64,000 nt of DNA from Gemmatimonadota bacterium (GTDB lineage: Bacteria > Gemmatimonadota > Gemmatimonadetes > Palauibacterales > KS3-K002). The notes below the pieces were generated by a model. That model saw nothing but the letters and a program-made list of their open reading frames with translations, did no database searches and had not been told where the DNA came from. Every line of letters starts with the position of its first letter. Position 1 is the first letter of the stretch. The position numbers and the translations under genes were made by a program. The stretch spans positions 7,027-71,026 of the forward strand of contig JBDHAL010000001.1 in assembly GCA_039588075.1 (NCBI GenBank). Direction: 5' to 3'. Below are positions 3,392 through 62,025 of the stretch, piece after piece.

Positions 3392-3413
3392 GATTTGACC
3401 CTCCTGATTGGCG

Positions 3414-12100: not shown

Positions 12101-12251
12101 CCACACCGGCGACGGCCACCACTCGTCCGCCCCGGTACGGTCCGATGTTCCGCCACTCGAGGGCGTCGAACAGGCTCTCGTCGTAGGCCTGAGCGCTGAG
12201 GTTGCTCACGGACAAGATCATCGCGACAGAGGCGATGGCGATTTGTTTCAT
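9117..12251 (-). CDS. secreted BNR/Asp-box repeat protein (sortilin/VPS10- or GH74-like beta-propellers)
   Basis: 1044-aa ORF with a signal peptide. It contains many S-x-D-x-G-x-T-W BNR motifs. It is paralogous to 58165-61494. Confidence 0.85.
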   Translation of the reverse strand: MKQIAIASVAMILSVSNLSAQAYDESLFDALEWRNIGPYRGGRVVAVAGVVDQPYVYYMGATGGGVWKTVDGGAIWEPVTDDYLEAGSVGAIAVAPSDPNVVYVGMGEACIRGNTSPGDGMYVSMDAGKTWKRAGLRDAGQIGGVVVHPNDADIVYVAVLGHAFGPNEMRGVFRSKDGGVNWEKILYRDENTGAVDLAMDPNNPRVLYAAFWQARRMPWGMESGGPGGGLFKSTDGGDSWTEISRNDGLPEGMLGRIGVTISPVNSERVWAIVEADEGGVFRSDDAGATWARVNDDRSLRQRAWYYTHIYADTENENTVYVLNVRFYKSTDGGRTYETIGTPHGDNHDLWIDPNNAHRMVEGNDGGANVTYNGGRTWTRQDNQPTAQFYHVTTTDHFPYKVCGAQQDNSTMCIASRTGGSGITDQDWYAVGGGESGYIAPRPDDPDVVYAGSYDGFLTRFDRHSGQTQAINAWPDNPMGWGAAELRYRFQWTFPIVLSPFDPNELYIGGNVVFRTHDEGQTWDAISPDLTRNDKSKQGPSGGPITKDNTSVEYYNTIFALVPSQHDRDVIWVGSDDGLVHVTRDGGQGWENVTPRDMPEWGLVSIIDESAHQPGVAYVAVNRYKLDDFAPYIFKTEDYGNSWEKIVRGIPDGHYIRVVREDPERRGLLYAGGEFGVYVSFDDGERWQSLQLNLPVVPIRDMVVKDDDLVLGTHGRSFWILDDLTPLRQLSDEVAAADAHLFKPRDTYRLGGFGGFGGGASGVGANPPSGAVVYYYLKDEPGGAVKLEFLQEDGTLIREYTSEGRGGRAGGPGGPGRPGGAAVPKSAGMNRFVWNLRYPDASDFPGLIMWGGSTAGPRAAPGSYQVRLSAGDETYTESFTVMKDPRVSASEADLQEQFEFLIRIRDRVSEANDAVTRIRDIRGQIDGAVERTKGQPYAEEVSEQAEQIKKTLSEIENEVYQTKNRSRQDPLNFPIKLNNKIAALSGVVSRGDGKPTRQSHDVYEELSAQLQVQLDRLAEVVATEIPAFNEMVAGHGVPAVIIREG

Positions 12252-17127: not shown

Positions 17128-20100
17128 ATGAACATCACCCGCGCTGCAATCGAGAAGAATCGCATCACGCTGGTCGCCCTTGTCGTCATCCTGTTCTCCG
17201 GCCTCGCCGCCTTTGCCAACATGTCCCGGTCCGAGGATCCGGGCTTCGTCGTGAGAACCGCCCAGGTGATGACCATTTTCCCCGGCGCCAGCCCTTCCCG
17301 CGTCGAGATGCTGGTCACCGACAAGCTGGAGAAGACGATCCAGGAGATGCCGGAGCTCGACTTCGTCGTTAGCGAATCGAAGGGCGGCGTCTCTGTGATC
17401 TACGTCAACATCAAGCAGAGCTACAAAAAGATGCGGCCGATCTGGGACGACCTGAGGCGCAAAATCGACCGCGCCGCGTCGGATCTCCCCGACGGCGTCA
17501 TCGGGCCCGTTGTAAACGACGACTTCGGTGATGTCTTCGGCACCGTCATCGCCCTCACCGGCGAAGGTTTCTCGTACGCCGAGCTCAAGGACATCGCCGA
17601 CCAGGTGCGCGACGAACTGCTGCTCATCGACGAGGTCGCCAAAGTCGACATCTACGGGGCGCAGGAAGAACGCCTCTTCGTCGAGTACAACAACGCGCGC
17701 CTCGCCGAGCTCGGCCTCTCACCCATCAGGCTGGGCCAGATCCTCGAGAGCCGCAACATCGTGCTCCCGGGCGGCGCGGTCACCGCCGGCGCCGAGCGCA
17801 TCGCCCTGGAACCATCGGGCAACTTCGAGACCCTGGACGATCTTCGCCGCACGGTGATCAGCCTCCCGGGAAGCGGCGAGGTCGTGTACCTGGAAGATAT
17901 CGCGGCCATCCACCGCGGTTACATCGATCCACCCGAGAACAGTGTCACCGCTACCGGCGTTCGCGCCCTCGCCCTGGCGGTCTCGCTTCGCGAGGGCGGA
18001 AACATCATCGAGCTCGGCCGAGCGGTCAGGGCCAGCGTAGCGCGCCTGCAAACGGTTTACCCCATCGGCATCGAGTTCAATATCGTGGCCTTCCAGCCGG
18101 ACGAGGTGAACCGAAGCGTCAACGACTTCGTGAACAATCTCCGGCAGGCCATTTTCGTCGTTGTCTTCGTGATGCTCCTCTTCCTCGGCCTGCGCACTGG
18201 CCTGGTGGTGGCGAGCCTCATCCCGATGGCGATCGTCATGGCTTTTCTGGTCATGTCGTTCTTCGGAATCGGGCTCAACATCGTATCGCTGGCCGCACTG
18301 ATCATCGCGCTCGGCCTGCTGGTGGACAACGCCATAGTGATGGTGGAATCCATCATGGTGCAGATGGCGGAGGGCAAACCGGCGAAGCAGGCCGCCATCG
18401 ATTCGGCAGGAGAACTTCGCGCTCCGCTGCTCATCTCGTCGGCCACCACGGCCGCCGCCTTCTTGCCCTTCTATCTCGCCGAGTCCGATACCGGCGAGTA
18501 CGTCGCGCCGCTCTTCTACGTGGTCACCATCACCCTGCTCTGTTCCTGGATCCTCGCGCTCACGATGATCCCGCTGCTCGCCGTGAGGTTCGCGAAGGCG
18601 AAGGCGAAGGCGGACGCCGGACGAGACAGCTACGATAACAGGTTCTACGCTGCGTATCGCAACGCGCTGCTCTTCGGACTCAGGCATCGGCTCCTCACCG
18701 TGGGCGGGGCGCTCGCTTGTTTCGTTCTGGCAATCGTCGGCCTGGGGTTCGTGCCCCAAATCTTCTTCCCGTCCACCGACAAAGCTTTCTTCAAAGCCGA
18801 GTTCGAGATGCCGATCGGAACGTCGATCGAGCGGACCCAAGAAGTCATCGCGGGGATAGAGGATTTTCTGACTCGAGAGTTGCTTGTAGGACCCGACCGG
18901 CCGGAAGGCGTCACGAGTTGGGCCTCGTTTGTTGGGCAAGGAGGACCGCGGTTCATGCTCAGTTACAACCCGGAGCCGCCCAGTCCCAACTATTCGTTCC
19001 TGCTCATCAACACCAGTTCCTACGAGCCGATCAATCAGTACGCCGCCAGGATCGATTCCTTCACGTTCGAGACGTACCCCGACCTCGAGTCTACCACGAG
19101 GCGTCTGGATTACGGGCCGCCCGTCGAGGCGCCCGTTCAGGTTCGGGTCCTCGGCCGCGACCCCGACGTCCTCTTCACCATCGTCGACCAGCTCAAGGAG
19201 CAACTTCGCGCCACTCCCGGTACCCGCAACGTCACCGACGACTGGGGTCGGCGCGTCAAGAAGCTAAACGTGAGGGTCAACCAGCCGCGGGCTCGTCGGG
19301 CCGGCGTGACCAGCCAGGACATCGCCCTGTCGCTGCAGGCCGGACTCAGTGGCTTCGAGATGAGCGAGTTTCGCGAGCAGGAAGAGCTCATACCCATGTC
19401 GGCAAGCTCGAGAGCCTCAACGTCTTCGCGCAGGCGACCGGACAATCGGTGCCGCTGAAGCAGGTCGCCGATGTCGAGGTCAGCTGGGAGGCGGCGAAGA
19501 TCCTCCGCCGGGACAGGCTGAGGACGGTGACGGTGGGTTCACAGCTGCAGCCGGGCTATACCGCCTTCGAGGTGATCGGGGTTCTCACGCCATGGTTGGA
19601 ACAGGAAAGCACCGGCTGGGACGTCGGCTATCGCTACGAAGTGGGCGGAGAGGTAGAGACGTCCGGCGAGGCGAACCAGTCGATCGCCGATAAGCTGCCC
19701 CTTGCGACGTTGATCATCATTATGCTGCTCGTGATCCAGTTCAATTCGATTCGCCGCCCGGCGATCATATTGATGACGATCCCGCTCGGCATGATCGGCG
19801 TATCGATCGGGCTGCTCGCCGCGCGATCGTACTTTGGCTTCATGACGCTGCTGGGGATCATCGCGCTGGCCGGCATCGTCATCAACAACGCCATCGTTCT
19901 GATCGACCGGATAAGGATCGAGATAGAGACGAACGGTCTCGAGCCAAGACGTGCCATCGTCGAGGCCGCGCAAAGGCGGCTACGGCCCATTCTGCTCACC
20001 ACCGCCACGACCATCTGCGGATTGCTACCGCTTTGGCTGGGCGGCGGTCCCATGTGGGAGCCGATGGCTATCTCGATCATCTTCGGCCTGCTGTTCGCGA

Positions 20101-20198
20101 CGGTCCTCACCCTGGGGCTCGTGCCGGTCCTGTACTCGTTGCTGTTCCGCGTTAGCTTCAGGGGGTTCAGCTACGATACACACACGGCAAGATCATGA
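17128..20198 (+). CDS. RND efflux permease (AcrB/HAE1 family), interrupted by an apparent frameshift near 19395
   Basis: The N-terminal roughly 760 aa are in frame 1 (17128-19458). The C-terminal roughly 265 aa continue in another frame (ending FRVSFRGF, stop at 20198). The combined length of about 1020 aa is typical of AcrB. Confidence 0.8.
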
Positions 20199-21910
20199 GC
20201 GATACGAGGGCCATCCAGGAGCCGACCTCTCTGACCAGCGCAACCGGCGGATCCTTCGAACAGGAATTGCGGGATCTGCTCCGGCAGAGGACGCGGCTGA
20301 TGCTCACCGTCGTCCTGGTGGTTGCAGTCGTTGCCCAGGCGGTCAACGCCTTCCTGGTCGCGGTGCCGTCAGCCATCCAGACCGGCCTGGTGCCGTGGAA
20401 GGAAGAGCTCCGCCTGTTGCACATCGTCTCGCTCGCCGTGGCGCTGCTGCTCACCTACTCGCTCAAGGGGAAGGCCCGCCAGTTTCAGCTGTTAGCCTTC
20501 TGGGTCGTAGCGTTCAACATGGTCCTCGCGATGGCCGTCCTCGCCTCGGACAGTCCGGCCGAAGAACCGTACCTGGTTTGTGCGCTGACGCTCTTCCTCT
20601 ACGCGGCGTTCATCCCGTCTCCGGCCCGCTACCCAATCATCCTGGCGCTGGTGGCCGTGGCCGGCTTCGATCTCTCGGCCGTCCTTACTTATGCCTATGT
20701 CCCGGAGGCTCAGGGCTACTGGGCGGAAATCGGTGCGGTGACCGAACTCAGCGGCCTGGCTGCACTGGGGAACCACCTGATCCTCGGGACCACGGGGGTA
20801 GCGATACTCGGCTTCGTGGCTCACGCGGTTAGCCGGACGCTGTACTCCCTGCGGCAAACGGCGCACAAAGCGCAGAGGATGGGCAACTACTTCATCGAGC
20901 AGGAATTGGGCGCCGGCGGGATGGGGCAGGTGTACCGCGCCAGGCACGCGCTGATTCGCCGGCCCACCGCCGTCAAGGTGATGCAGGTGGCAGGAGAGGA
21001 GCAACAGGCGGCGATCAAGCGATTTGAACGAGAAGTGCAGGTGTCGGCGACGCTGTCGCATCCCAACACCATCACGATCTACGACTTCGGGCACACGCCG
21101 GACAACAAGTTCTACTACGTGATGGAATACTTGGACGGACTGGATCTCCAGGAGGCAGTAGAGCGATTCGGACCACTGACGGCCGAACGCGCCGTGTTCA
21201 TCCTGGCGCAGGTCTGCAGCGCCATGGGCGAAGCTCACGCGCGCTCCATCGTGCACCGCGACATCAAGCCGTCGAATATCTACCTGACCCATCGCGGTGG
21301 CCTGTACGATTTCGTCAAAGTCCTCGACTTCGGGCTGGCCAAGCAGCTCGAGGTACAGGAGAGCGTGGCGCTGACCAAGACCGGCGTCGCCGTCGGCACG
21401 CCGCGTTACATCTCGCCCGAAGCGATCAAGGGCGCCGAGAATATCGATGGGCGCTCCGACCTGTACTGCCTCGGCGCGGTAGCCTACTGGATGATTACCG
21501 GGCGACCGGTCTTCGATTCGTCATCCAGCGTCGAGTTGATGATCGACCATATGAGGGCCATCCCCAGCCCGCCTTCGCAGGTGACGGAGCTGTCGATCCC
21601 GCGCGATCTGGAAATCATCGTCATGCAGTGCCTGTCCAAGGATCCGAATGACCGCTTCCAAACCGCGGAGGAGATGGAGCTCGCCCTCCGCGCCATCCAC
21701 TTCGAGGAACCCTGGACCCAGCAGAAGGCACGCGAGTGGTGGGATCTCCACGGACTGGTCAGCGAGACTCCGCCTGACCTGCCACGCCCCAAGCAGAACG
21801 AGACCGATCTGCTCAGCCCCGGGATCTCCCAGCCTCTCCTAAACTCGTTTCTCGTTTCTCACTGTCGTTGTCATTGTCGTTGCCGTTGTCGTTATCGACA
21901 ACGACAGTGA
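20195..21910 (+). CDS. membrane-anchored Ser/Thr protein kinase (N-terminal about 6-TM domain plus Hanks kinase)
   Basis: GAGGMGQVY, AVKVM, HRDIKPSN, DFG and SPE motifs. The C-terminal residues CRCHCRCRCRYRQRQ are encoded by the palindromic repeat. Confidence 0.85.
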   Translation: MSDTRAIQEPTSLTSATGGSFEQELRDLLRQRTRLMLTVVLVVAVVAQAVNAFLVAVPSAIQTGLVPWKEELRLLHIVSLAVALLLTYSLKGKARQFQLLAFWVVAFNMVLAMAVLASDSPAEEPYLVCALTLFLYAAFIPSPARYPIILALVAVAGFDLSAVLTYAYVPEAQGYWAEIGAVTELSGLAALGNHLILGTTGVAILGFVAHAVSRTLYSLRQTAHKAQRMGNYFIEQELGAGGMGQVYRARHALIRRPTAVKVMQVAGEEQQAAIKRFEREVQVSATLSHPNTITIYDFGHTPDNKFYYVMEYLDGLDLQEAVERFGPLTAERAVFILAQVCSAMGEAHARSIVHRDIKPSNIYLTHRGGLYDFVKVLDFGLAKQLEVQESVALTKTGVAVGTPRYISPEAIKGAENIDGRSDLYCLGAVAYWMITGRPVFDSSSSVELMIDHMRAIPSPPSQVTELSIPRDLEIIVMQCLSKDPNDRFQTAEEMELALRAIHFEEPWTQQKAREWWDLHGLVSETPPDLPRPKQNETDLLSPGISQPLLNSFLVSHCRCHCRCRCRYRQRQ

Positions 21911-21948
21911 CAACGACAGTGAGAAACGAGAAGCGAGGGGGAGCGCCC
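21845..21948. repeat. palindromic (GTCGTT)n/(AACGAC)n-GAGAAACGAGAAGCGAG element, copy 2, between the tandem kinases
   Basis: ctcgtttctcgtttctcactgtcgttgtcattgtcgttgccgttgtcgttatcgacaacgacagtgacaacgacagtgagaaacgagaagcgag. Confidence 0.6.
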
Positions 21949-21982
21949 GCGGTAGACCGCCCGCCGGCCAACAGCTAACATT

Positions 21983-23638
21983 ATGGCTATGCCAGAGCAC
22001 GTGCCTACCGTCGAGCGGGCGATATCCGGGCCCTTCTCAACCACGGCCTCGTTCGAGGATGAGCAGCTTGAGCTGCTGTGGGAACGCTGCCGCCTGCTGT
22101 TCGTTACCGGGCTGGCTATCTGCGGTATCGCCTTCGTAGTGAATTTGCTGATCCCCGAATACAAGCTGTATCTCGAGAGCCCGCTGCTTCGCTTCAAGTG
22201 GGCGACCAGCGCGGCGGCCCACGCCGCTTCGTTCCTCGTTGCGCTGGGGCTGCTCTATCTGTTCTGCAGGCGCAGTCCTAAGTACCTGCACGCCATCGCC
22301 TATGCCACGATGGCATTCAACATCGTTCTGCTCACATCCGGTCACGTGGCATTTCAGCCCGATAAAGATCCCGGCCTCGGCGTCTCGTTGTTGCTGTTTC
22401 TCGCCGCGGCGTTCATTCCCTGGCGACCCAGCTATCAGTGGGCGCTGGCAGCGATGGCAGCCATCTGGTTCCTGCTGTTGCAGGGCTTGCTACAGGCGAC
22501 GCTATCCGAGTTTCAGCTTTTCTGGGCCCAACGCGGTGGCGCAGAGGCGGCGCGCGCCAATGTCATCTGGGGTGTCACCGCCATCGCGATGCTGGGCGGT
22601 GCCTCGGCAATGGTGAGCCATACGCTGTACAACCTGAAGAAGACGGCCCACCGGGCGAAGCGGCTGGGCAAGTACCTGATCCACGGAGAGATCGGTGAAG
22701 GCGGCATGGGCCAGGTATACTTCGCCCAACATTCATTGATCTGCCGGCCGACGGCCGTCAAAGTCATGCGACCGTCGGAGGACGGGCGAACGGCGCTGGC
22801 GCGGTTCGAGCGAGAGATCCGCGTCTCGGCAACGCTCACGCACCCGAACACGATAACGATCTACGACGTCGGCTGGACGCCGGAACGAAGCCTGTATTAC
22901 GCGATGGAGTACCTGGAGGGTTTGGACCTGCAGCAGCTGGTGGAGAAATACGGGCCACTATCTCCGGAGCGCGTCGTCCATATCCTGAAGCAGGCCGCGG
23001 GCTCGCTCGAGGAAGCGCATTCCCGAAACATCATCCACCGCGATATCAAGCCGTCCAACATCTTCCTGACGCGTCGCGGCGGCATCTACGATTTCGTGAA
23101 GGTTCTCGACTTCGGGCTCGCCAAGCAAATCAAGTCGGACACGGCCAGCGCAATCACGAAGACGGGCATGCTGTTCGGGACACCGCGCTACCTGGCGCCC
23201 GAAACCGTCTATGGAACCGAGAAGATAGATGGACGAGCCGACCTCTACTGCCTCGGCGGCGTGGCGTATTGGATGCTCACCGCGCGACCCGTGTTCACTT
23301 CTGAGACGAGCGTCGAGGTCGTCATCGATCACGTCAAGACGATACCGGATCGACCGTCCGAGGTTTCCGAGGTTTCGATCCCTGCGGAGCTGGAAGACAT
23401 CGTGATGAGATGCCTGGAGAAGAAGCCGTCCGACCGCTATCAGACGGCCCGCGATCTCGAGTCCGCGCTGGATGCCGTTCCCTTCTCGGATTCGTGGAAC
23501 CGGTCGAAGGCGGAGGATTGGTGGAACCTGCACGGCATCATCGGCGACGGCGCTCGCGACTACGATTGCTACTTCCCGGGAAGTGATTTCGAGGCTGAAG
23601 AAGAAGTTCCCCTCGGCACCGCTGAACCCGCTGCATAG
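21983..23638 (+). CDS. membrane-anchored Ser/Thr protein kinase, tandem paralog of 20195-21910
   Basis: Same architecture as the upstream kinase. The kinase-domain blocks align closely (HPNTITIYD, YDFVKVLDFGLAKQ). Confidence 0.85.
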   Translation: MAMPEHVPTVERAISGPFSTTASFEDEQLELLWERCRLLFVTGLAICGIAFVVNLLIPEYKLYLESPLLRFKWATSAAAHAASFLVALGLLYLFCRRSPKYLHAIAYATMAFNIVLLTSGHVAFQPDKDPGLGVSLLLFLAAAFIPWRPSYQWALAAMAAIWFLLLQGLLQATLSEFQLFWAQRGGAEAARANVIWGVTAIAMLGGASAMVSHTLYNLKKTAHRAKRLGKYLIHGEIGEGGMGQVYFAQHSLICRPTAVKVMRPSEDGRTALARFEREIRVSATLTHPNTITIYDVGWTPERSLYYAMEYLEGLDLQQLVEKYGPLSPERVVHILKQAAGSLEEAHSRNIIHRDIKPSNIFLTRRGGIYDFVKVLDFGLAKQIKSDTASAITKTGMLFGTPRYLAPETVYGTEKIDGRADLYCLGGVAYWMLTARPVFTSETSVEVVIDHVKTIPDRPSEVSEVSIPAELEDIVMRCLEKKPSDRYQTARDLESALDAVPFSDSWNRSKAEDWWNLHGIIGDGARDYDCYFPGSDFEAEEEVPLGTAEPAA

Positions 23639-32064: not shown

Positions 32065-32140
32065 GCGCGGTGGCCCGTCCCGCCTACTTGCCCGTCCGGC
32101 GCGACATGGAGCGAGGTGGCCCCTGTCGCACCCCGCACTC
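32060..32140. repeat. GC-rich modular repeat unit (TTGCCCGTCCGGCGCGACATGGAGCGAG...) overlapping the luxC 3' end
   Basis: Same unit as at 37230-37265, 39880-39910 and 40675-40710. It encodes the last roughly 18 aa (PPRSMSRRTGK) of the LuxC-like ORF. Confidence 0.5.
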
Positions 32141-33571
32141 ACCACGCGTCACATCAAGATCAACGAACCGGACCAAGTCCTGGAATTGAAACCGCCCATC
32201 GTGGTGCCAGTGCGGTGCGGGCCAGGCCGCCTCGCCGATGGGAACGATCCGCGTGGCTCCGGCCGCGCCGAGCTGAGCCGCGAGAACCGCCACCTCGTCC
32301 GGCGTCGCTGCCACCGCCACGGTCTGAAGCCGGTGCCCCACCCGCTCCAACGCCGACAGCGCTTCCGACAGCTCGCCGACCGGGCGGACGTGTATGACCC
32401 GATTGAGCGGCGACGGCTCGAACTCCGGACGCTCTTCGATGATCACCGTCCACTCGGTTCCGCGCTGGCCGGCCAGCACAGTCGCCCCGCGGATCTCCGC
32501 CTGCGCCCGCAACTGGTGGATCAGAGTCGATTCGCCGGGCGTCATCGTGCCGCGCGGGATCTCGGTCGAGAGCCGCTCCAGGGCCGCGGCGAGCAGGTTC
32601 GCGAACTCGAGCGGGCTCACCGCACCCCCGTCTTCCACGTAGATGGCGTGCGGCGAAACGCAGCCCTGCTGGTCGAAGGTCACGACATCGAGAGCGGCGT
32701 CGCGTGCTAGACTCTCCGTGTCGCCGGCGCCGAGCCCGTTGCGGGAGATCAGCGCCGCACCAACGCGGTTGGGGTAGGCGATGAAACGGACCTGGGGCGG
32801 TACGTGGCAACCGATTCGGCCGATCGTTTCGTCGCTACCGTAGGCGATCACCACCTCGGCCTCCGAGAACGCCACAGCCTCCAGATCGTCCGATCCGCCC
32901 GGCCAATAGGTGACGCCCAGACAACCGGCCAGCTCCGGGTCCTCTTCCGCCAGCGCCCGGGCGAAACAGACGGCGACGTACGGTTCGCCGGCCGCCGTCT
33001 TGCCGAAGCCTGCCGATTTCACGCAGAGCGAGCGGATCAGGCTACTCACCGACACGCCGGGGATATTGCCGCTGAACACGTGCACCGTGAGCGAGGGGCC
33101 GAATGCGCGTTCGAGGCCGCCGGATGTGCGGACGCGGAAATCATCGAGAACGTCGAGGCCTTTGAATTCGTCCTCGAGCGCACCGCGCAGCGCGCCGGCC
33201 GTCCAACCGGCTCCCATCCGCTCCAACCCGATCTCGATCATCTCCCGAGAGTACCCGGTGAGTCCGGGCAACACCTCGAGGAGTTCGGCATGCAGCGGTT
33301 CGCCCTGCCGGACGAGGCGCCGAGATGCGCGTTCGATCGTATCGAGGAGCTCGGCCACAGGTCGTTCGGCCAAGACCTCGGCTCGCTTCCTGCGCATGTC
33401 GATCAGCACGTCTCGCAGGGCGTGCGGCGTCAGCGTGGGAACGCGCAGCGGGATGTGGCCCGGGCCGAATGCGCGCTCGGCGACCTCGAAGCCCGGCCCG
33501 CGGAGCGCGTCGGTCGGTCGGTCGTGGAGCGCCGGTAACCAGAAACCGTCTAGCGTTGTGCCGTCAGCCAT
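32084..33571 (-). CDS. LuxC-like long-chain acyl-CoA/acyl-protein reductase
   Basis: LuxC family architecture (aldehyde-dehydrogenase-like fold with a conserved Cys region). It overlaps the upstream luxE-like gene by 22 nt. Confidence 0.75.
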   Translation of the reverse strand: MADGTTLDGFWLPALHDRPTDALRGPGFEVAERAFGPGHIPLRVPTLTPHALRDVLIDMRRKRAEVLAERPVAELLDTIERASRRLVRQGEPLHAELLEVLPGLTGYSREMIEIGLERMGAGWTAGALRGALEDEFKGLDVLDDFRVRTSGGLERAFGPSLTVHVFSGNIPGVSVSSLIRSLCVKSAGFGKTAAGEPYVAVCFARALAEEDPELAGCLGVTYWPGGSDDLEAVAFSEAEVVIAYGSDETIGRIGCHVPPQVRFIAYPNRVGAALISRNGLGAGDTESLARDAALDVVTFDQQGCVSPHAIYVEDGGAVSPLEFANLLAAALERLSTEIPRGTMTPGESTLIHQLRAQAEIRGATVLAGQRGTEWTVIIEERPEFEPSPLNRVIHVRPVGELSEALSALERVGHRLQTVAVAATPDEVAVLAAQLGAAGATRIVPIGEAAWPAPHWHHDGRFQFQDLVRFVDLDVTRGECGVRQGPPRSMSRRTGK

Positions 33572-34662
33572 TGGTCCATTGCGATCGAGCAGCCGCGCAA
33601 CTCGGCTCCAGCGGCTCGCCCCAGTATCTCGAAGCCGCCAGCGCCGGCGACTCCGAGGTCGTCTGTTTGGATCGCCATCACCGAGTCGAAGTTAGCCAGA
33701 TCGAAGTGCCGCAGCACACCTACCCGACCCTCGGGAAGCAGCTCGAGCGTCTCGGCATCCACGACCTGCGTGCGCACCCAGGGCGGAACGACCTTGTAGC
33801 GATACCCCGGCGAACGCCCGAGCGATCGCTCCCTCAATACATTGTCATAGAACTGTGAGCACATCTCAGTCATCCCGTACTCGGCCACGCAGTACAGCTC
33901 CGACAATCCCAATCGATCGCGCAACATCGAGTACAGCTGATCTCTCGGAATCTCCCTGCGATAGCGCTTGAAGCCCCCCGTCTCCATCGCCCGCGAGCCC
34001 GCCGGCAACCTGAAGCGCCGGCCGCTCCCTTCCATCGTCTCCAACAGGTGAGCATACGCCGCCGCCGTCCCCAGCAACATCGCAGGTACACCTCGCGCCT
34101 CCACCAACTCGAGCGCCGAACCCAACCGCTCGAGGCTCAGCCCTTCCCCGTCGACGAAGTAGGCGCTATCCGGCGCCCCGTACTCTCGACGCACCAGCTC
34201 GAACATCCAGCTGAGCGACGAGTCGGGCGCCAGCTCGGGTGACGGCCCGAGGATCAGCGTCCGCAAGCCCGTCACACCGGGAAGCATGTGCTCTCGGAAA
34301 TTGGGAAGCGCGGCAGCCCTGTAAAAGCCCAGGTCGAGCACGTGGTGGGCGCCTCTGCGCTCAGGGCCCTGGCTCGTTCCGCTCGTCCGGAATACGATCT
34401 CCGCCGCGTCGGCAGCGCCGCAGACCAGGGCCGCCTCCTTGAACGCGGCCGTGGGTACCGCCGGAATCTCGGACCAACCCCCCACCCTCTCCGGCGTTCC
34501 GCCACGCCCCTCGCAGAACCGGCGATACGGCTCGTTCTCCGCGAATTGACGCTCGTAGACCTTCAGCGCCAGCTCCTCGAAGCTCCCGCCCTCGGGAGCC
34601 CGCAAGCCGCGCCCGATATACCCCAGGACCTCACCGCGAAGACCGTCGACCGCTGTCATCAA
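33550..34662 (-). CDS. LuxE-like acyl-protein synthetase
   Basis: LuxE-family adenylating enzyme, sitting immediately upstream of the LuxC-like gene in the same operon. Confidence 0.75.
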   Translation of the reverse strand: MMTAVDGLRGEVLGYIGRGLRAPEGGSFEELALKVYERQFAENEPYRRFCEGRGGTPERVGGWSEIPAVPTAAFKEAALVCGAADAAEIVFRTSGTSQGPERRGAHHVLDLGFYRAAALPNFREHMLPGVTGLRTLILGPSPELAPDSSLSWMFELVRREYGAPDSAYFVDGEGLSLERLGSALELVEARGVPAMLLGTAAAYAHLLETMEGSGRRFRLPAGSRAMETGGFKRYRREIPRDQLYSMLRDRLGLSELYCVAEYGMTEMCSQFYDNVLRERSLGRSPGYRYKVVPPWVRTQVVDAETLELLPEGRVGVLRHFDLANFDSVMAIQTDDLGVAGAGGFEILGRAAGAELRGCSIAMDQWLTAQR

Positions 34663-34764: not shown

Positions 34765-35709
34765 CTATTTGTCTTCCTCCTCCTCTTCTTCTTCCTCCTC
34801 CTCCTCCTCTTCTTCTTCTTCCTCCTCCTCCTCCTCTTCTTCTTCCTCCTCCTCCTCCTCCTCCTCCTCTTCTTCCTCTTCTTCTTCTTCTTCGCCTACA
34901 TCCTCATCCTCTTCTTCTTCCTCTTCTTCCTCTTCCTTCTTTTTCGCCTTGGCCTTCGCCGCTTCTTCACTAGCCGCCGCCGCCGCCATTGCCGCCGCCG
35001 CAGCCGCCGCAGCCTCTGGATCAAACAACAGCGCGTCGAAGTCATCCACCGCCAACTCATCGGTGGGCGCCTTGATCTCCACCCCCTTGTCGGCAGCGCG
35101 CCGCAGCTCGTCCGGCGTGAGCATGGCGGCGAAAACGACCGGTGTCCAGCCGGCGGCGCGAACGCCCTCGGTCGCCTTGCCCTCGCGAACTCGTTCGGCC
35201 GAATCCTCATCGCCCAAGTCGGCGAGTTTCTCAGCCAGGAACTCGCGGAAATCGGTCCGCTCGACGTACTGGCTCATGAGAAGGAGGTGCTGCACGGCGA
35301 GCAACTGCAGCCCGGATTCGACGGAGGCCGAGCAGTAGGCATCGATGTGCTCGCGGGCGATCTCGAGGAAGCCCTTTCCCAAGCAGAGCCAAGCGAGCGT
35401 GCGGCGCGTGCGGATTACCTCAGGGACGACCCGGATGATCTTGCGGCAGACCGCCATGGCGTTGTCGTACTCGCCGGACTGCAGGTAGGCGTCGATGGCA
35501 TTGCCGTAGCGTGCAAGAGCGCTCTGGCGGTCCCCTTTGACGAGGTAGAGATCGCCGGCACGGTTGAGCAGGCGCGCCGCCTCGTAGCCGTGCCCCAGCC
35601 TCTCCAGCTCCTTCTCTATCCGCTCGAGATCATCGCTGGCCATGACCGGAGTGGAAGCGTCCGGATCCTGGTCGGCGCCGCCGAATACTTTCTTAAAGAA
35701 ACCGAGCAT
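34765..35709 (-). CDS. TPR-like protein with an about 70-residue poly-Glu C-terminal tail
   Basis: N-terminal TPR-like helical repeats. The C-terminal tail reads EEEEEEEEEDEDVGEEEE...EEEDK. Confidence 0.7.
   Translation of the reverse strand: MLGFFKKVFGGADQDPDASTPVMASDDLERIEKELERLGHGYEAARLLNRAGDLYLVKGDRQSALARYGNAIDAYLQSGEYDNAMAVCRKIIRVVPEVIRTRRTLAWLCLGKGFLEIAREHIDAYCSASVESGLQLLAVQHLLLMSQYVERTDFREFLAEKLADLGDEDSAERVREGKATEGVRAAGWTPVVFAAMLTPDELRRAADKGVEIKAPTDELAVDDFDALLFDPEAAAAAAAAMAAAAASEEAAKAKAKKKEEEEEEEEEDEDVGEEEEEEEEEEEEEEEEEEEEEEEEEEEEEEEEEEEEEEEEDK
34768..34930. repeat. (CTC/CTT)n trinucleotide microsatellite (GAG/GAA on the coding strand) encoding the poly-Glu tail
   Basis: About 160 bp of cttcctcctcctc repeats. 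Confidence 0.75.
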
Positions 35710-35877
35710 CAGACACCCAGTGTGCCGTTGTCGACCGAGATTCTCTCATAACCGGCCACGGCGGCCGGGGACCGCTTCGCTTGCGACGGGGGTTGGACGC
35801 GGCTCAAATTAGACCGCGTAGCCCAAAGGGTCAACCGATGGAGCGGAGGGGCCCGACCCATTCACGCGGGAGAACTC

Positions 35878-36099
35878 ATGCACGTAAGCATCGAATACTG
35901 CGTCGTTTGAAACTACGAACCCCGTGCCGCCAGTTTGGCGGACATTCTCCGGTCACGGTATGACGGGATCGAGGTCGAGCTCATCGAGAGCGGGGGCGGC
36001 GCCTTTGAAGTACGCCATGAAGGTGAGCTAGTTTACTCGAAGCTCCGCGAAGGGCGCTTCCCGAACGACGAGGAGATCTTCGAACTCCTGGGGGGCTGA
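35878..36099 (+). CDS. selW: SelW/Rdx-family selenoprotein with an in-frame UGA (Sec) codon at 35908-35910
   Basis: Translates as MHVSIEYCVV-U-NYEPRAASLADILRS...GGGAFEVRHEGELVYSKLREGRFPNDEEIFELLGG, with the CxxU redox motif and SelW-like blocks. A GGGAGA RBS precedes the start. The hairpin ccgtg-ccgcc-agttt-ggcgg...cacgg lies 8-50 nt after the UGA and is a SECIS candidate. Confidence 0.75.
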
Positions 36100-36115
36100 T
36101 ACTCGGCGCGGGCGG

Positions 36116-36391
36116 CTAATCCCAGTAGGGCTCAGACTCGTCCCAGGTCTCCGTCCAGAACCGCTCCTCCTCCTTGGAGATCTCGTCCATATCCAGGGCC
36201 TCCTCCGGGACGAAGACGCCGCTGAGCGAGCCGTACCTGATGATATCACCCACCATCTCGTCGGTGAGCCAACCTTCTTTTGGCAGGGCGTCCTCGCGGC
36301 GCCGGCGTAACACGGCGAAGACCCCTGCAAGCATCACGAGAGCGAGCAGGAGCAGCGTCAATGAAAGGCCGAGCCACTGAGAGACCGTCAT
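36116..36391 (-). CDS. small hypothetical membrane protein
   Basis: Start chosen at MTVSQWLGLSLTLLLLALVML; one TM helix followed by an acidic tail. Weak RBS. Confidence 0.4.
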   Translation of the reverse strand: MTVSQWLGLSLTLLLLALVMLAGVFAVLRRRREDALPKEGWLTDEMVGDIIRYGSLSGVFVPEEALDMDEISKEEERFWTETWDESEPYWD

Positions 36392-36639
36392 AGCATCCGA
36401 GCGATAAGTGCGGGAGACGGCGCAAGCGCGCCTGCAACTATATTCCGGTCCAACGCCGCAGTTGTCAATCACCGCTCGCGGTCGGGGATCATAGGTTCCC
36501 CGGAGCGCAGGAGCGAACGCCTGCCGCAGGCCATTCATCTTCGTGGATACCAACGCGTTAAGCGATAGGCGGGTTCCGGTACGTCTCTAGTCCCGGTGAC
36601 TCACGGGTCGCGGAGTGATGCCACTACTCGCGGCAGTGG

Positions 36640-37289: not shown

Positions 37290-41096
<3,807 letters not shown>

Positions 41097-58164: not shown

Positions 58165-61100
58165 CTAGCGCGACGGAACCTGAAGCTCCTCCTTCGGCTT
58201 GAGGAACTCGAGGTTCGCCGCCTCGACCTGGCCTCTGAACGCGGCGACATCCTCACCGAACACGCGATTGATCTCGGCAACGACCTCCTGCAGCTCCGCC
58301 TCGGCCTGAGCCAGGTAGGTCTGCTGCGCGCCGGTGGGGGCATCCCACGAAGAATTGAGCGAGCCGTACACATACCGGATCTTGGAGAACACGGTGGTAT
58401 CGGCCACGATCCCCTTCGTGGTTCCCGGCGGGACCCAGAACCGCTCCTCCAGCTGCGTGAGCGTCCTGTTCAGGCTACGCCCCGCCGTCATCAACTCCTC
58501 GTTTCCATTATCGTCGCCGTTCGAGCCCTGGCCGTTCGTCGCCGTGGTCGTTTCCGGCTCGTCACTCCTTGCCATCTGGAGGACATCGTCGACCTCGGTG
58601 CGCGTCTGACGGATGCGTTCGATCGCCCCGGTCGCCACTTCCTGTAGCGCGCCGGCGTGCATGATGGCATCGAACTTCGCCACCCGTACGGCGTGCGGGA
58701 TATCGAAGCGCGGGTCGGCCAAGACGTTGAGGCTGCCACTGACTTCGTGGTCACCGTACTTGATCTTGACCGTGTAGGCGCCCGGCAGGACCTCGGGGCC
58801 ACCGCCACCGCCGAAGAAGCCACCACCACCCTGGCCAGTGCTGGGCCGCTCGAAGCCGTCGCGCCGCAGGTTCCAGAAGGCGCGGTTCACTCCCAGCTTC
58901 ACCGGGCTCTGGAAGGTACGTATCACTTCGCCGTCCGAGTCGCTGATCTCTATGTCGACCTGCGGCCCGCTGGATCGAGCCCCGGGTCCACCAAAGCCAC
59001 CCGGGCCACCGCGACCGCCCGCGCCCCGGCGAGCCGCCGGCCCGCGAGCCGGCTGTTCCTCGGTTTCGCCGGCCTCGCGCCGCGCGGCCTTGCGCTGGCG
59101 CTCGATCTCGTCATTGGGATGCTCGAGATCGTCGGCGTTGAGTGAGAAGGTGAGCATCGCACCGTAGCGGCGGTTCTCACCCCGGTACTCGCCGTTACCC
59201 GGGAAGCGCGAGGCGCCGGTCTGTTTGACCCGGTACTGCTGCGCATCGGGCATGGCGAACAGGTGGATCGGCTCGGCCATCGTCTCGGCCGAAATGCTGC
59301 GTAGCGGGCTGATGTCGTCCAGCACGTAGGCCGCGCGCCCGTGCGTCCCGATCACCAGGTCGTTCTCCCGCGGGTGCACGACCAACGCCATCGCCGAAAC
59401 CGTCGGGAAGCCGTGGGTCCACTTCACCCACTGCGCACCGCCATTGACGCTGACGTAAAGGCCGAACTCGGTGCCGAGGAAAAGCAGGTCTTCCTTCACC
59501 GGGTCCTGCTCGATGACGAGGGTGTAGCCCCACAGGTCGTCGGTGGCCAGGCTCTTCCAGCTCTTCCCGTAATTGCTCGTCACGTAGACGTAAGGAGTCC
59601 AATCCGAGCGCCGGTGGTTGTCGAACACGATGTAGGCCGTCGCCGGGTCGTACTTCGACGGCTCGATGTGCGGGACCCAGCTGTTCTCGGGCACGCCCTT
59701 GATGTTGGCCTGGACGCTCTGCCAGCTCGCGCCGCCGTCCTGTGTCACGTGCACGCGGCCGTCGTCGGTGCCGGCCCAGATCACGCCGCGCTCCAAAGCG
59801 CTCGGCGCGATCGTCATGATCGTCGTGAAGTTCTCGGCGCCGGTGACGTCCAGAGTCAGGCCGCCGCTCTCCGCCTGCTTCTGCCACTCGGGGTTGTTGG
59901 TGGTCAGGTCACCGCTGATCAGCGCCCAGTGGTCGCCCCGGTCGTTGGACTTGTGCACGAACTGACTGCCGTAATAGACGGTATTCGCATCGAACGGGTC
60001 GATGGCGATCGCCGCGTTCCAGTTGAAGCGCAGCGGCACGCCGTCGGGGTGCGCCGGCCGGACGTCCTTGCGCTCCCCCGTACGCAGGTCGTAGCGCCGC
60101 AGGAAACCCTCCTGACTCATCGAGTACCCGGCCATCGGTTCGTTGGGATCCGCCAGCACCGCGAAGCCGTCGCCGAAGCCAACCTCTTCCCAGTGGTGGT
60201 TGCGGATGCCGCCGTTCTCCCATACGGAGCTCGGGCCACGCCAGGATCCGTTGTCCTGCATTCCGCCCAGCACGTTGTACGGCTGTTCCATGTCAACGCT
60301 GATGTGGTAGAACTGAGCCAGCGGCAGGTTGAAGACGAAGCGCCAGGTTGTCCCGTAGTCTCGGCTCACGTAGACGCCGCCGTCGTTCCCATCGATGATG
60401 TGCGAGGGATCGCTCGGGTTGATCCACATGGCGTGGTGGTCGGGGTGAGGCCCACCGAAGTAGCCGCCCGGACTCTCGAAGTTCCTGCCCCCGTCCGTCG
60501 ATACGCTGATTCGCGACCACAGGCTGTAAACGCGGTTCGCGTCCTTGGGGTCGACGCGCAGGTCGGCGTAGTAAAAGGGACGGTTTCCGATGTTATCGCC
60601 GTCGCTCGCCATGCTCCAGCTGTAGCCGCCGTCTTCCGACTTGTAGAGGGCGTTTTCCTTCGCCTCGACCAGCGCGTACACGATGTTCGGGCTGGATGGC
60701 GCGATGGCGAGCCCCGTACGACCCAGCTCGCCTGCGGGCAACCCATCCTCCTCCGTCAGTTTCTTCCAGTTCCTGCCGCCATCCACCGTGAGGTAGATAC
60801 CCGAGCCGGGTCCGCCGGAGTTGAAGAACCACGGCCAGCGGCGGTACTCCCACATCGCCACGATCAGCTTGTTCGGGTTCGTGGGATCCATCTCCATGTC
60901 GGCGACGCCGGTCTTCTCGTCGATGTAGAGGATCTTGCTCCACGTCTTGCCGCCGTCCTCCGTCTTGTAGACGCCGCGCTCTGGGTTCTCGCCCCACAGC
61001 GCCCCCATCGCCGCCACGTAGGCGACGTCCGGATCGCTCGGGTCGAGGTAGATGCGGTGGATTCGCTCGGTCTTGTCGAGGCCCGCGTGGGTCCACGTCC

Positions 61101-61494
61101 GGCCTCCATCCATCGACCGGTAGACACCGTTGCCCACCGATACGCTGTTGCGCGTGTTCCCTTCACCCGTCCCGATCCAGACGATGTCCGGGCTCGCCTG
61201 ATAGATCGCGATCGCTCCGATCGCCGCTACCGGCTGGTCGTCGAAGATCGGCTCCCACGTCAGCCCGCCATTCTCCGACTTCCACAGGCCGCCCGTCGCG
61301 GCGCCCACGTACACGATGTCCGGATTCGAGTCGACGGCCTTGACCACGGCCACCCGGCCGCTCATTCCGGCAGGCCCAATCGATCGGGCCTGCATGCCGG
61401 CGAGCAGCTCCATGTCGATCTGCCCGTGCAGCGGCGCAGCCAGGCCGGCCGGCAGCACCCAGATCACACCTCCGAAAAACAGACGGCGGAGCAT
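58165..61494 (-). CDS. secreted BNR/Asp-box repeat protein (sortilin/VPS10- or GH74-like), paralog of 9117-12251
   Basis: Start at MLRRLFFGGVIWVLPAGLAA with a GGAGG RBS. BNR motifs run throughout, and the C-terminal domain is homologous to that of the first paralog. Confidence 0.85.
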   Translation of the reverse strand: MLRRLFFGGVIWVLPAGLAAPLHGQIDMELLAGMQARSIGPAGMSGRVAVVKAVDSNPDIVYVGAATGGLWKSENGGLTWEPIFDDQPVAAIGAIAIYQASPDIVWIGTGEGNTRNSVSVGNGVYRSMDGGRTWTHAGLDKTERIHRIYLDPSDPDVAYVAAMGALWGENPERGVYKTEDGGKTWSKILYIDEKTGVADMEMDPTNPNKLIVAMWEYRRWPWFFNSGGPGSGIYLTVDGGRNWKKLTEEDGLPAGELGRTGLAIAPSSPNIVYALVEAKENALYKSEDGGYSWSMASDGDNIGNRPFYYADLRVDPKDANRVYSLWSRISVSTDGGRNFESPGGYFGGPHPDHHAMWINPSDPSHIIDGNDGGVYVSRDYGTTWRFVFNLPLAQFYHISVDMEQPYNVLGGMQDNGSWRGPSSVWENGGIRNHHWEEVGFGDGFAVLADPNEPMAGYSMSQEGFLRRYDLRTGERKDVRPAHPDGVPLRFNWNAAIAIDPFDANTVYYGSQFVHKSNDRGDHWALISGDLTTNNPEWQKQAESGGLTLDVTGAENFTTIMTIAPSALERGVIWAGTDDGRVHVTQDGGASWQSVQANIKGVPENSWVPHIEPSKYDPATAYIVFDNHRRSDWTPYVYVTSNYGKSWKSLATDDLWGYTLVIEQDPVKEDLLFLGTEFGLYVSVNGGAQWVKWTHGFPTVSAMALVVHPRENDLVIGTHGRAAYVLDDISPLRSISAETMAEPIHLFAMPDAQQYRVKQTGASRFPGNGEYRGENRRYGAMLTFSLNADDLEHPNDEIERQRKAARREAGETEEQPARGPAARRGAGGRGGPGGFGGPGARSSGPQVDIEISDSDGEVIRTFQSPVKLGVNRAFWNLRRDGFERPSTGQGGGGFFGGGGGPEVLPGAYTVKIKYGDHEVSGSLNVLADPRFDIPHAVRVAKFDAIMHAGALQEVATGAIERIRQTRTEVDDVLQMARSDEPETTTATNGQGSNGDDNGNEELMTAGRSLNRTLTQLEERFWVPPGTTKGIVADTTVFSKIRYVYGSLNSSWDAPTGAQQTYLAQAEAELQEVVAEINRVFGEDVAAFRGQVEAANLEFLKPKEELQVPSR

Positions 61495-62025
61495 AATCGT
61501 CCTCCAGTTTTGTGGATCAGAAGCTCGGTTCTGTGGGGCGTGACAACATAGGGTACGGCCGCGGCACAGGCCAGCGATGCCGCAAGACACCCTACCTGGG
61601 TGTCCGAGGTCGTAGCCCGCACCGGCACGCGTTCGAGCAGGGCACAACGCAAAGCTTGCGGCGATTTGCAAGCACTTGATCCCGGCGAATCTGCCGCTTC
61701 GTCCGCAGGCTCGAACCTTCTACCTGTCTGCCCGACACCCACTTAAGGCGAAAGTACGAAGCACGCCCCGGCGCTCGGCACGCGGCTTGCCCTTTGGGCA
61801 TGCTACCACCCCGCCGCAAGTTGAGCTCAACACGGCGGTGGTTATGTCGATTAAATCGGCTCGCTCGCAACGACATGCCTGGCTGGCTGGGGTTGTGACG
61901 ACTTGGATCTGACCGGCCCAATCGGCGCGGGCGAGCCGATCAATTTCCGTGACATGAAATTCGGCGAACTCGAAGACGCGTAGCGGTCTGGCGTCGGGAA
62001 CCTGCACTGCCGTCTGTCATTCTGA

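What the first reader, a model, noticed from the sequence alone, without database searches (positions are those of the whole stretch)
35878..36099. Hidden selenoprotein: SelW/Rdx-like gene with an in-frame UGA-Sec codon
Reading from ATG 35878 through the TGA at 35908-35910 gives MHVSIEYCVV-U-NYEPRAASLADILRSRYDGIEVELIESGGGAFEVRHEGELVYSKLREGRFPNDEEIFELLGG. This carries the CxxU redox motif and the conserved SelW/Rdx blocks (IEYC, RA..LA, G.FEV, GELV.SK, GRFP). Homology continues past the UGA, so the stop codon is almost certainly recoded as selenocysteine. A candidate SECIS hairpin (ccgtg-CCGCC-aguuu-GGCGG...cacgg) follows the UGA. The gene is absent from the six-frame track because the ORF is split, and naive gene callers would miss it. 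It implies selABCD genes and a tRNA-Sec elsewhere in the genome.
Basis: partly seen in the sequence, partly recalled or inferred. Interest (0 to 1): 0.8.

Follow-up and report, generated by a model that had tools for sequence, protein, structure and literature searches.

The report
SelW-like selenoprotein gene with SECIS
This is a genuine small redox-protein gene of the well-known bacterial SelW/Rdx family, in which an in-frame UGA followed by a conserved RNA hairpin almost certainly encodes selenocysteine; it is real but ordinary.

Summary
Window 35878-36099 (+) reads MHVSIEYCVV-UGA-NYEPRAASLA…LLGG-stop. With U read as C it scores 78.9 bits against Pfam Rdx (PF10262). It scores 98.8 bits against the NCBIfam equivalog NF041051, "SelT/SelW/SelH family (seleno)protein" (cut-off 88). 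All 80 related loci fetched from species-level genomes, mostly Gemmatimonadota MAGs, carry TGA at the same CxxU position. In 77 of 81 sequences a start codon lies exactly 10 codons upstream, and the pre-UGA codons vary with coding periodicity.

A 6-bp hairpin with a 3-nt G-first loop sits 16 nt after the UGA (35927-35941). It is paired in 97.9% of cells and has compensatory changes at 4 of 6 pairs. UGA is otherwise a normal stop in this window.

No selA, selB, selD or tRNA-Sec lies in the 64 kb window or about 14 kb of extra flank, so the machinery in this genome is untested. In one relative (L077) the orthologue sits directly beside tRNA-Sec and a Sec-containing selD.

SelW-like CxxU proteins are already described as the most abundant prokaryotic selenoprotein family in marine metagenomes. 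JGI already labels the truncated 54-aa call a putative selenoprotein. Verdict: a new member of a known kind, of low interest.

The parts
35868..35872 (+). Shine-Dalgarno-like GGGAG, 5 nt upstream of the ATG
   Evidence: Read directly from the sequence. An SD-like tetramer lies at -16..-4 of the start in 57 of 81 homologous loci. No sigma-70-like promoter was found in 35600-36400.
35878..36099 (+). Full-length SelW/Rdx-like selenoprotein CDS: 73 residues, with Sec at residue 11 and terminal stop TGA at 36097-36099
   Evidence: Translation. PF10262 at 78.9 bits. NF041051 at 98.8 bits against a cut-off of 88, and TIGR02174 at 72.7 bits. In 77 of 81 homologs a start codon lies exactly 10 codons before the UGA, and the pre-UGA codons show 3-periodic variability.
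35899..35910 (+). CxxU redox motif: TGC GTC GTT TGA = Cys8-Val-Val-Sec11
   Evidence: It aligns to the CxxC of human MIEN1/C17orf37 (2LJK) and Atu0228 (2FA8). C-x-x-TGA is present in all 80 related loci.
35908..35910 (+). In-frame UGA, inferred to be a selenocysteine codon
   Evidence: TGA is conserved in 80 of 80 related genomes. UGA is otherwise a stop here. It ends 10 of 28 Pfam-supported genes, and none of their 14,511 sense codons is an in-frame TGA.
35927..35941 (+). Bacterial-type SECIS core hairpin: 5' arm CCGCCA (35927-35932), loop GUU (35933-35935, G invariant), 3' arm UGGCGG (35936-35941). It lies 16 nt after the UGA and overlaps codons Ala-Ala-Ser-Leu-Ala.
   Evidence: RNAalifold predicts exactly these 6 pairs. 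They are paired in 97.9% of cells across 78 distinct sequences, and 4 of 6 pairs show changes on both sides. No shuffle of 500 reached the observed covariation score, and slid controls reach at most 0.081 against 0.200. Loops are GUU 46, GUC 26, GGU 8 and GGC 1.
35924..35945 (+). Possible window-specific extension of the hairpin: GUG/CAU with a bulged A35942
   Evidence: It appears in the MFE fold. The corresponding alignment columns 18/36 and 19/35 pair in only about half to two thirds of sequences, so this extension is weak.
35935..36099 (+). Truncated 54-aa ORF (TTG start) that automatic gene callers report in place of the full gene
   Evidence: Listed. It is identical to P0001, which JGI names 'selT/selW/selH-like putative selenoprotein'.

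Best explanation
Window 35878-36099 (+) encodes a 73-residue thioredoxin-fold-type redox protein of the Rdx family (the SelT/SelW/SelH group, known as prokaryotic 'SelW-like'), and its active-site motif is Cys8-x-x-Sec11. The proposed mechanism has four steps. (1) Ribosomes start at ATG 35878, downstream of a GGGAG Shine-Dalgarno. (2) At UGA 35908-35910, the hairpin at 35927-35941 inside the coding sequence acts as a bacterial SECIS. Its small G-first loop recruits SelB·GTP·Sec-tRNA(Sec), which competes with RF2 so that selenocysteine is inserted. (3) Translation continues to the ordinary UGA stop at 36097-36099, which has no SECIS after it. (4) The mature protein cycles between a selenolate/thiol form and a selenenylsulfide form on the CxxU motif, and acts as a thiol-dependent oxidoreductase on an unidentified substrate. 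Steps shown here are family membership, conservation of the UGA, translation-type conservation of the pre-UGA decapeptide, and conservation and covariation of the hairpin. Steps inferred are actual Sec insertion, SelB binding and the redox chemistry. These follow from established knowledge of bacterial Sec decoding and of the Rdx family. The host is an uncultured Gemmatimonadota bacterium; the same sequence occurs in NCBI MAG GCA_039589535.1 and in JGI metagenomes 3300041079/80/82/86.
For: Family: PF10262 Rdx at 78.9 bits. NF041051 equivalog at 98.8 bits against a cut-off of 88, and TIGR02174 CXXU_selWTH at 72.7 bits. The closest solved structures are Rdx proteins (2LJK, 2FA8, 3DEX, 2OBK, 2P0G), and the CxxC motif aligns to CVV-U. 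Recoding: TGA is at the CxxU position in 80 of 80 related loci from distinct species-level genomes. A start codon lies exactly 10 codons upstream in 77 of 81 sequences. Column entropy by codon position in the pre-UGA codons is 0.73/0.52/1.25 bits, against a flat 1.86/1.86/1.82 upstream of the start. SECIS: a 6-bp helix at a fixed register is paired in 97.9% of cells, with compensatory double changes at 4 of 6 pairs. No shuffle of 500 reached the observed score, and slid controls are far lower. The first loop nucleotide is an invariant G. Amino-acid changes on the two arms are coupled through base pairing: AASLA becomes AFSLK, ASSLK or ASxLE. UGA is not reassigned globally. In relative L077 the orthologue is followed directly by tRNA-Sec (ARAGORN, anticodon TCA; Rfam RF01852 at 67.3 bits against 47) and by selD (TIGR00476 at 373 bits), which itself carries an in-frame UGA at the active-site position. 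[quoted passage not shown]
Against: No selA, selB, selD or tRNA-Sec was found in the 64 kb window or in about 14 kb of extra flank from the same organism. The rest of the genome could not be searched. The hairpin's folding energy in the single sequence is no better than shuffled sequence (z -0.6 to -0.7). No Rfam family matches the element. There is no direct evidence of expression or of selenium incorporation. The substrate and physiological role are unknown, and no neighbouring gene is conserved across clades.
Confidence: 0.93

Rival explanations
1. The UGA terminates translation, and the functional product, if any, is the 54-aa fragment started at TTG 35935, as gene callers predict. On this view the upstream decapeptide ORF is incidental or a leader peptide.
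For: This is what JGI, NCBI and other pipelines call (P0001-P0004). The post-UGA part alone still scores 55.7 bits to Rdx.
Against: The fragment lacks the family's defining CxxC/U motif and its first strand. The pre-UGA decapeptide is in frame, adds 16-23 bits of family score and shows third-position-biased variation. Its start codon lies at exactly -10 codons in 77 of 81 genomes. The internal TTG or ATG start is not at a conserved position (P0001-P0009 start at different residues).
Confidence: 0.03
2. The UGA is read through by a non-Sec mechanism, for example near-cognate Trp- or Cys-tRNA, or a suppressor, because the organism lacks or has lost the Sec machinery.
For: Sec machinery was not found in the accessible DNA of this organism. 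One database entry (P0005) translates the position as W, probably because a different genetic-code table was applied.
Against: UGA is a normal stop in this window: it ends 10 of 28 genes, with no in-frame UGA in 14,511 codons. The position is the Sec position of a known selenoprotein family. The conserved, covarying hairpin with an invariant loop G at a fixed distance has the form of a SelB-binding SECIS. A relative clusters the orthologue with tRNA-Sec and selD.
Confidence: 0.03
3. The gene is a pseudogene, or the stop codon is a sequencing or assembly error in an otherwise Cys-containing Rdx gene.
For: A single in-frame stop in a metagenome-derived sequence can be an error. The window contains at least one frameshifted gene (AcrB-like).
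Against: The same TGA occurs in 80 of 80 independent assemblies and in three further JGI contigs that encode the identical truncated product. A TGC-to-TGA error would not recur universally. Purifying selection acts on both sides of the codon.
Confidence: 0.01

Closest known systems
Prokaryotic SelW-like selenoproteins (Rdx family: PF10262, TIGR02174 CXXU_selWTH, NF041051 SelT/SelW/SelH family (seleno)protein)
   Same: It has the same size (about 70-75 aa), an N-terminal CxxU motif after a short first strand, and the conserved G-x-F-E-V and SK…GRFP blocks. The in-frame UGA is followed by a coding-region SECIS. HMM scores are above curated cut-offs. The family is described as the most abundant prokaryotic selenoprotein family in the Sargasso Sea and GOS data, with few Cys homologs in Sec-using organisms (PMC1088965, PMC2398784, PMC1794560).
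   Different: Nothing differs in kind. This copy comes from an uncultured Gemmatimonadota lineage, and I found no published selenoproteome description for that phylum in the searchable library. Its full-length form is not in the protein database searched; only truncated calls are.
Mammalian selenoprotein W / MIEN1 (C17orf37, PDB 2LJK) and other Rdx proteins
   Same: These are homologous over residues 3-70, at 52.8 bits to 2LJK. The redox motif is at the same position. From the literature on the Rdx family, they have a thioredoxin-like fold.
   Different: Eukaryotic SelW uses a 3'-UTR SECIS of a different architecture. MIEN1 and the solved bacterial members (2FA8, 3DEX, 2OJL, 2OBK, 2P0G, 2OKA) carry Cys rather than Sec and are about 100-117 residues long.
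Escherichia coli fdhF-type bacterial SECIS (SelB-binding hairpin immediately 3' of UGA)
   Same: It is a stem-loop inside the coding sequence just after the UGA, with a small apical loop and a conserved G. The fixed spacing to the UGA is conserved across orthologues.
   Different: The conserved part here is minimal: a 6-bp helix and a 3-nt loop (G-U/G-U/C), starting 16 nt after the UGA. No conserved bulged U was seen, and the lower stem is weak and clade-specific (62.5% paired). Binding to SelB was not tested.

Membership tests
Rdx / SelT-SelW-SelH family (PF10262; TIGR02174; NF041051) | Profile-HMM score above the curated family threshold over the full domain | tested here: met
   PF10262 at 78.9 bits (cut-off 22.6), covering profile positions 1-72 of 74. 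NF041051 at 98.8 bits (cut-off 88). TIGR02174 at 72.7 bits (cut-off 34.2).
Rdx / SelT-SelW-SelH family (PF10262; TIGR02174; NF041051) | CxxC/CxxU redox motif near the N-terminus, aligned with that of characterised members | tested here: met
   C8-V-V-U11 aligns with CEPC of 2LJK and CTQC of 2FA8. The motif is present in all 80 relatives.
Rdx / SelT-SelW-SelH family (PF10262; TIGR02174; NF041051) | Thioredoxin-like fold | not testable with these tools
The fold is inferred only from sequence homology to solved Rdx structures.
Bacterial selenoprotein gene (SelB/SECIS-dependent UGA recoding) | In-frame UGA at a position conserved as UGA (or Cys) in orthologues, with protein conservation on both sides | tested here: met
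   TGA in 80 of 80 loci. The start codon lies at exactly -10 codons in 77 of 81, and the pre-UGA codons show coding periodicity. The post-UGA part scores 55.7 bits.
Bacterial selenoprotein gene (SelB/SECIS-dependent UGA recoding) | [quoted passage not shown] From my own memory of the bSECISearch model, the UGA-to-loop distance is about 16-37 nt and the loop 3-14 nt. | tested here: met
   A 6-bp helix at 35927-35941 with a 3-nt loop whose first base is G in 81 of 81. There are 22 nt between the UGA and the loop.
Bacterial selenoprotein gene (SelB/SECIS-dependent UGA recoding) | Evolutionary support for the RNA structure (compensatory changes) | tested here: met
   4 of 6 pairs have changes on both sides. 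The covariation score is 0.200, against a shuffled mean of 0.106 (0 of 500 shuffles as high) and slid controls of at most 0.081.
Bacterial selenoprotein gene (SelB/SECIS-dependent UGA recoding) | selA, selB, selD and tRNA-Sec (selC) present in the same genome | not testable with these tools
   None is present in the 64 kb window or in flanks L084 and L086. There is indirect support: relative L077 has the orthologue next to tRNA-Sec and selD.
Bacterial selenoprotein gene (SelB/SECIS-dependent UGA recoding) | Selenium actually incorporated (75Se labelling or mass spectrometry) | not testable with these tools
   This needs an experiment.
Eukaryotic/archaeal-type SECIS (3'-UTR kink-turn element) | Match to an Rfam SECIS model downstream of the CDS | tested here: not met
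   No Rfam family reached threshold in the window. In 35700-36300 only chance-level hits appeared, at E of 0.12 or higher. This is expected for a bacterial gene.

The most novel reading that the evidence does not exclude
In this Gemmatimonadota clade the SelW-like selenoprotein may be a dedicated partner of its conserved neighbours. These are the divergently transcribed 314-aa protein with a poly-Glu tail, the LuxC/LuxE-type acyl-reductase/acyl-protein-synthetase pair upstream, and the convergent small membrane protein downstream. That synteny is kept in about 16 relatives. If the link is functional, it would give a first handle on the still-unknown substrate of bacterial SelW-like proteins. 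It would also mark Gemmatimonadota as a phylum that uses Sec widely, with SelW-like as a strictly Sec-retaining core selenoprotein (81 of 81 UGA, no Cys form among the best matches).
Probability: 0.1. Interest if true: 0.4.

Novelty: new member of a known kind. Interest (0 to 1): 0.15.

Why it matters
The practical value is in annotation. The true 73-residue product, including its catalytic CxxU motif, is missing from the protein database searched, which holds only 51-54-aa fragments. Recognising the gene implies that this uncultured Gemmatimonadota lineage, and dozens of relatives, decode UGA as selenocysteine. That bears on how selenium use is interpreted in sediment and marine communities. 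The alignment of 81 orthologues also gives a clean example of a coding-region SECIS constraining protein sequence, with coupled Ala→Phe and Ala→Lys changes forced by base pairing. None of this changes current understanding. The family, the motif and the recoding mechanism have been described since 2004-2008.

Tried and rejected
1. Single-sequence folding of 35905-35975 and 35908-35960 gave z-scores of -0.74 and -0.61. These are uninformative, so the SECIS case rests on comparative data.
2. Rfam scans of the whole window at gathering thresholds and of the locus at E≤10 found no relevant family.
3. A generic Python scan of the window for other read-through TGAs, with GC3 and hairpin filters, gave 298 raw candidates. 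These were dominated by spurious high-GC antisense ORFs, and the filter did not even recover the true locus, so I abandoned it.
4. Pfam annotation of about 50 ORFs across the window found no selA, selB or selD.
5. Walking off both ends of the window with the look-up of encoding contigs gave about 14 kb of extra DNA from the same organism, with no Sec genes.
6. A tblastn search with E. coli SelD and SelB sequences recalled from memory, used as rough probes only, covered all 480 kb of fetched loci and found one SelD, in L077. I then verified it with NCBIfam.
7. Using the L077 SelD to reach a Gemmatimonadota SelD failed, because the top 120 of 8000 hits are all close to the Verrucomicrobial query.
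9. All-vs-all clustering of flanking ORFs in the 80 loci was contaminated by spurious ORFs. It showed only clade-specific synteny, with no universal partner gene.
10. A lower stem (columns 9-12 with 41-44) is only 62.5% paired and at best clade-specific.
11. Literature searches for Sec use in Gemmatimonadetes/Gemmatimonadota found nothing specific.

Full report
**Observation.** Window 35878-36105 (+) translates as MHVSIEYCVV*NYEPRAASLADILRSRYDGIEVELIESGGGAFEVRHEGELVYSKLREGRFPNDEEIFELLGG*. The start ATG is at 35878, the Cys codon at 35899-35901, the in-frame TGA at 35908-35910 and the terminal TGA at 36097-36099. The mechanical ORF list shows only the split pieces, including a 54-aa ORF from TTG 35935.

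**Family membership.** With the UGA read as Cys, the 73-residue protein scores 78.9 bits (E 3.3e-22) against Pfam PF10262 (Rdx) over profile positions 1-72 of 74. It scores 71.8 bits with X at that position, and 55.7 bits for the post-UGA part alone.
- The ten pre-UGA residues therefore add 16-23 bits of family-specific signal in the same frame.
- NCBIfam gives 98.8 bits to NF041051, the equivalog "SelT/SelW/SelH family (seleno)protein" (cut-off 88), and 72.7 bits to TIGR02174 CXXU_selWTH.
- Overlapping ORFs in other frames and on the other strand match no family.
- The closest solved structures are all Rdx proteins: human C17orf37/MIEN1 (2LJK, 52.8 bits), Atu0228 (2FA8), 3DEX, 2OJL, 2OBK, 2P0G and 2OKA. 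Their CxxC motif aligns to C8-V-V-U11.

**Is the UGA a conserved, translated codon?** A scan of one genome per species (GTDB) found 303 relatives, and the best 80 loci were fetched. Most are Gemmatimonadota MAGs; the rest include Planctomycetota, Acidobacteriota, Latescibacterota, Poribacteria and Verrucomicrobiota.
- All 80 have TGA at the CxxU position, with an open and conserved frame on both sides.
- In 77 of 81 sequences a start codon (71 ATG, 6 GTG) lies exactly ten codons before the UGA.
- Column entropy in the nine codons between start and UGA is 0.73/0.52/1.25 bits for codon positions 1/2/3. The 24 nt upstream of the start are flat at 1.86/1.86/1.82.
- An SD-like tetramer precedes the start in 57 of 81 sequences. 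In the window it is GGGAG at 35868-35872.
- The decapeptide is therefore translated and under purifying selection, which excludes a pseudogene, an assembly error or a fortuitous upstream ORF.
- UGA is not reassigned in this organism. Among 28 Pfam-supported genes of the window, 10 end in TGA, and none of their 14,511 sense codons is TGA.

**The SECIS.** It starts 16 nt after the UGA, and 22 nt separate the UGA from the loop.
- On its own its energy is unremarkable, with z of -0.6 to -0.7.
- In the gap-free alignment of 81 orthologous segments (A1), RNAalifold predicts exactly these six pairs.
- They are formed in 97.9% of cells across 78 distinct sequences. Four of the six pairs show compensatory changes on both sides (C-G↔A-U/G-C/U-A, G-C↔U-A).
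- The covariation score is 0.200 against a shuffled mean of 0.106. No shuffle of 500 reached it, and structures slid by ±1-3 columns reach at most 0.081 (the 8-pair version is).
- The first loop nucleotide is G in 81 of 81. The loops are GUU 46, GUC 26, GGU 8 and GGC 1.
- The helix overlaps the codons for Ala-Ala-Ser-Leu-Ala. The compensatory changes therefore appear as coupled amino-acid replacements: AASLA becomes AFSLK, ASSLK or ASxLE. This is hard to explain other than by selection on the RNA.
[quoted passage not shown] They also match my recollection of the bSECISearch model.
A possible lower stem is only 62.5% paired. Neither is part of the conserved element.

**Sec machinery.** The window has no tRNA gene and no Rfam hit. 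Pfam annotation of about 50 ORFs shows no SelA, SelB or SelD.
- Look-ups with window proteins recovered further contigs of the same organism. These were JGI metagenomes 3300041079/80/82/86 and NCBI MAG GCA_039589535.1 contig JBDHHF010000147.1. They extend the view by about 14 kb, again without Sec genes or tRNA-Sec.
- There is indirect support. In L077 (a Chthoniobacterales MAG) the orthologue (3001-3201) is followed by tRNA-Sec at 3342-3438 (ARAGORN, anticodon TCA; Rfam RF01852 at 67.3 bits against gathering 47). Next comes selD (TIGR00476 at 373 bits), which itself has an in-frame UGA in "SAAG-U-ASK". That UGA aligns with Cys17 of the E. coli SelD sequence I recalled from memory.
- An attempt to use this SelD to reach Gemmatimonadota SelD proteins returned only close Verrucomicrobial relatives.

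**Context and function.** The gene lies between two others. Upstream is a divergently transcribed 314-aa protein (34765-35709, -) with a long poly-Glu tail. Downstream is a convergent small membrane-type protein (36116-36553, -). Further upstream are LuxE- and LuxC-like genes, and further downstream is dnaE.
- This order is kept in the roughly 16 closest relatives but not beyond. Gemmatimonadaceae have a different, phosphofructokinase-like neighbour.
- No neighbour therefore informs function across the family.
- The mechanism I commit to is the family's: a CxxU selenenylsulfide/selenol-thiol redox couple on a thioredoxin-like scaffold, with an unknown substrate. This is inferred, not shown.

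[quoted passage not shown] It was also the most abundant in GOS, with 427 selenoproteins against 56 Cys homologs (PMC1088965, PMC2398784). It is noted for having few Cys homologs in Sec-using bacteria (PMC1794560).
- JGI already labels the truncated 54-aa call "selT/selW/selH-like putative selenoprotein".
- Other pipelines also produce only 45-64-aa fragments. In one case (P0005) a full-length protein has W at the Sec position, probably because another code table was applied.
- I found no paper in the searchable library that describes selenoproteins of Gemmatimonadota specifically.

**Verdict.** It is a new member of a known kind. Its value is correct annotation, plus a tidy example of SECIS-imposed protein covariation. 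Interest is 0.15.

Noticed in passing
L077:3001-4606 (Chthoniobacterales MAG JBHENE010000035.1): A compact selenium cluster. A SelW-like gene with in-frame TGA (3001-3201) is followed by tRNA-Sec (3342-3438, anticodon TCA; RF01852 at 67.3 bits). Next comes selD, which itself has an in-frame TGA at the active-site position ('SAAG*ASK'; TIGR00476 at 373 bits). Gene callers truncate this SelD to 329 aa.
   Followed up: yes
window 17128-20198 (+): An AcrB/RND transporter gene is split by a frameshift. ORF 17128-19458 covers Pfam ACR_tran positions 2-761 of 1021. The remainder (767-1020) continues in another frame in ORF 18717-20198, so the shift lies near 19380-19458. It could be an assembly error, a pseudogene or a programmed shift; I did not resolve which.
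   Followed up: partly
window 34765-35709 (-): The gene divergent from the selenoprotein encodes a 314-aa protein whose C-terminal roughly 70 residues are almost pure Glu (more than 50 consecutive E). Its only Pfam hit is a marginal one from the acidic tail (Ribosomal_60s). The N-terminal roughly 220 residues are 71-80% identical in 16 relatives and always adjacent to the SelW-like gene.
   Followed up: partly
window 35927-35941 and alignment A1 columns 19-36: The SECIS helix forces coupled amino-acid substitutions in the protein. Ala-Ala-Ser-Leu-Ala becomes Ala-Phe-Ser-Leu-Lys, Ala-Ser-Ser-Leu-Lys or Ala-Ser-x-Leu-Glu in different lineages, each keeping base pairing.
   Followed up: yes
window 37290-41096 (-): The DnaE-type DNA polymerase III alpha subunit (1268 aa) has an unusual gap. 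The PHP domain matches only profile positions 1-94 of 164 (residues 18-113), and the next domain starts at residue 502. The intervening sequence is Gly/Arg/Ala-rich low complexity rather than an obvious intein.
   Followed up: no
protein P0005 (ENA, 77 aa): This is a full-length homolog in the protein database with Trp at the Sec position (MNIAIEYCVVWNYEP…). The UGA was probably translated under a code-4/25 table by the gene caller, so the selenoprotein is disguised as a Trp protein.
   Followed up: no
window 32084-34662 (-): A LuxC-like acyl-CoA reductase and LuxE-like acyl-protein synthetase pair lies next to an EamA transporter and a class-V aminotransferase. The LuxC/LuxE pair is syntenic with the SelW-like gene in about 15 close relatives, and its role is unknown.
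   Followed up: partly
window 20195-23638 (+); 9117-12251 (-) and 58165-61671 (-): Two tandem paralogous Ser/Thr protein kinases (571 and 551 aa) share the same architecture. Two very large Sortilin/BNR-repeat proteins (1044 and 1168 aa) lie at distant sites in the window.
   Followed up: no
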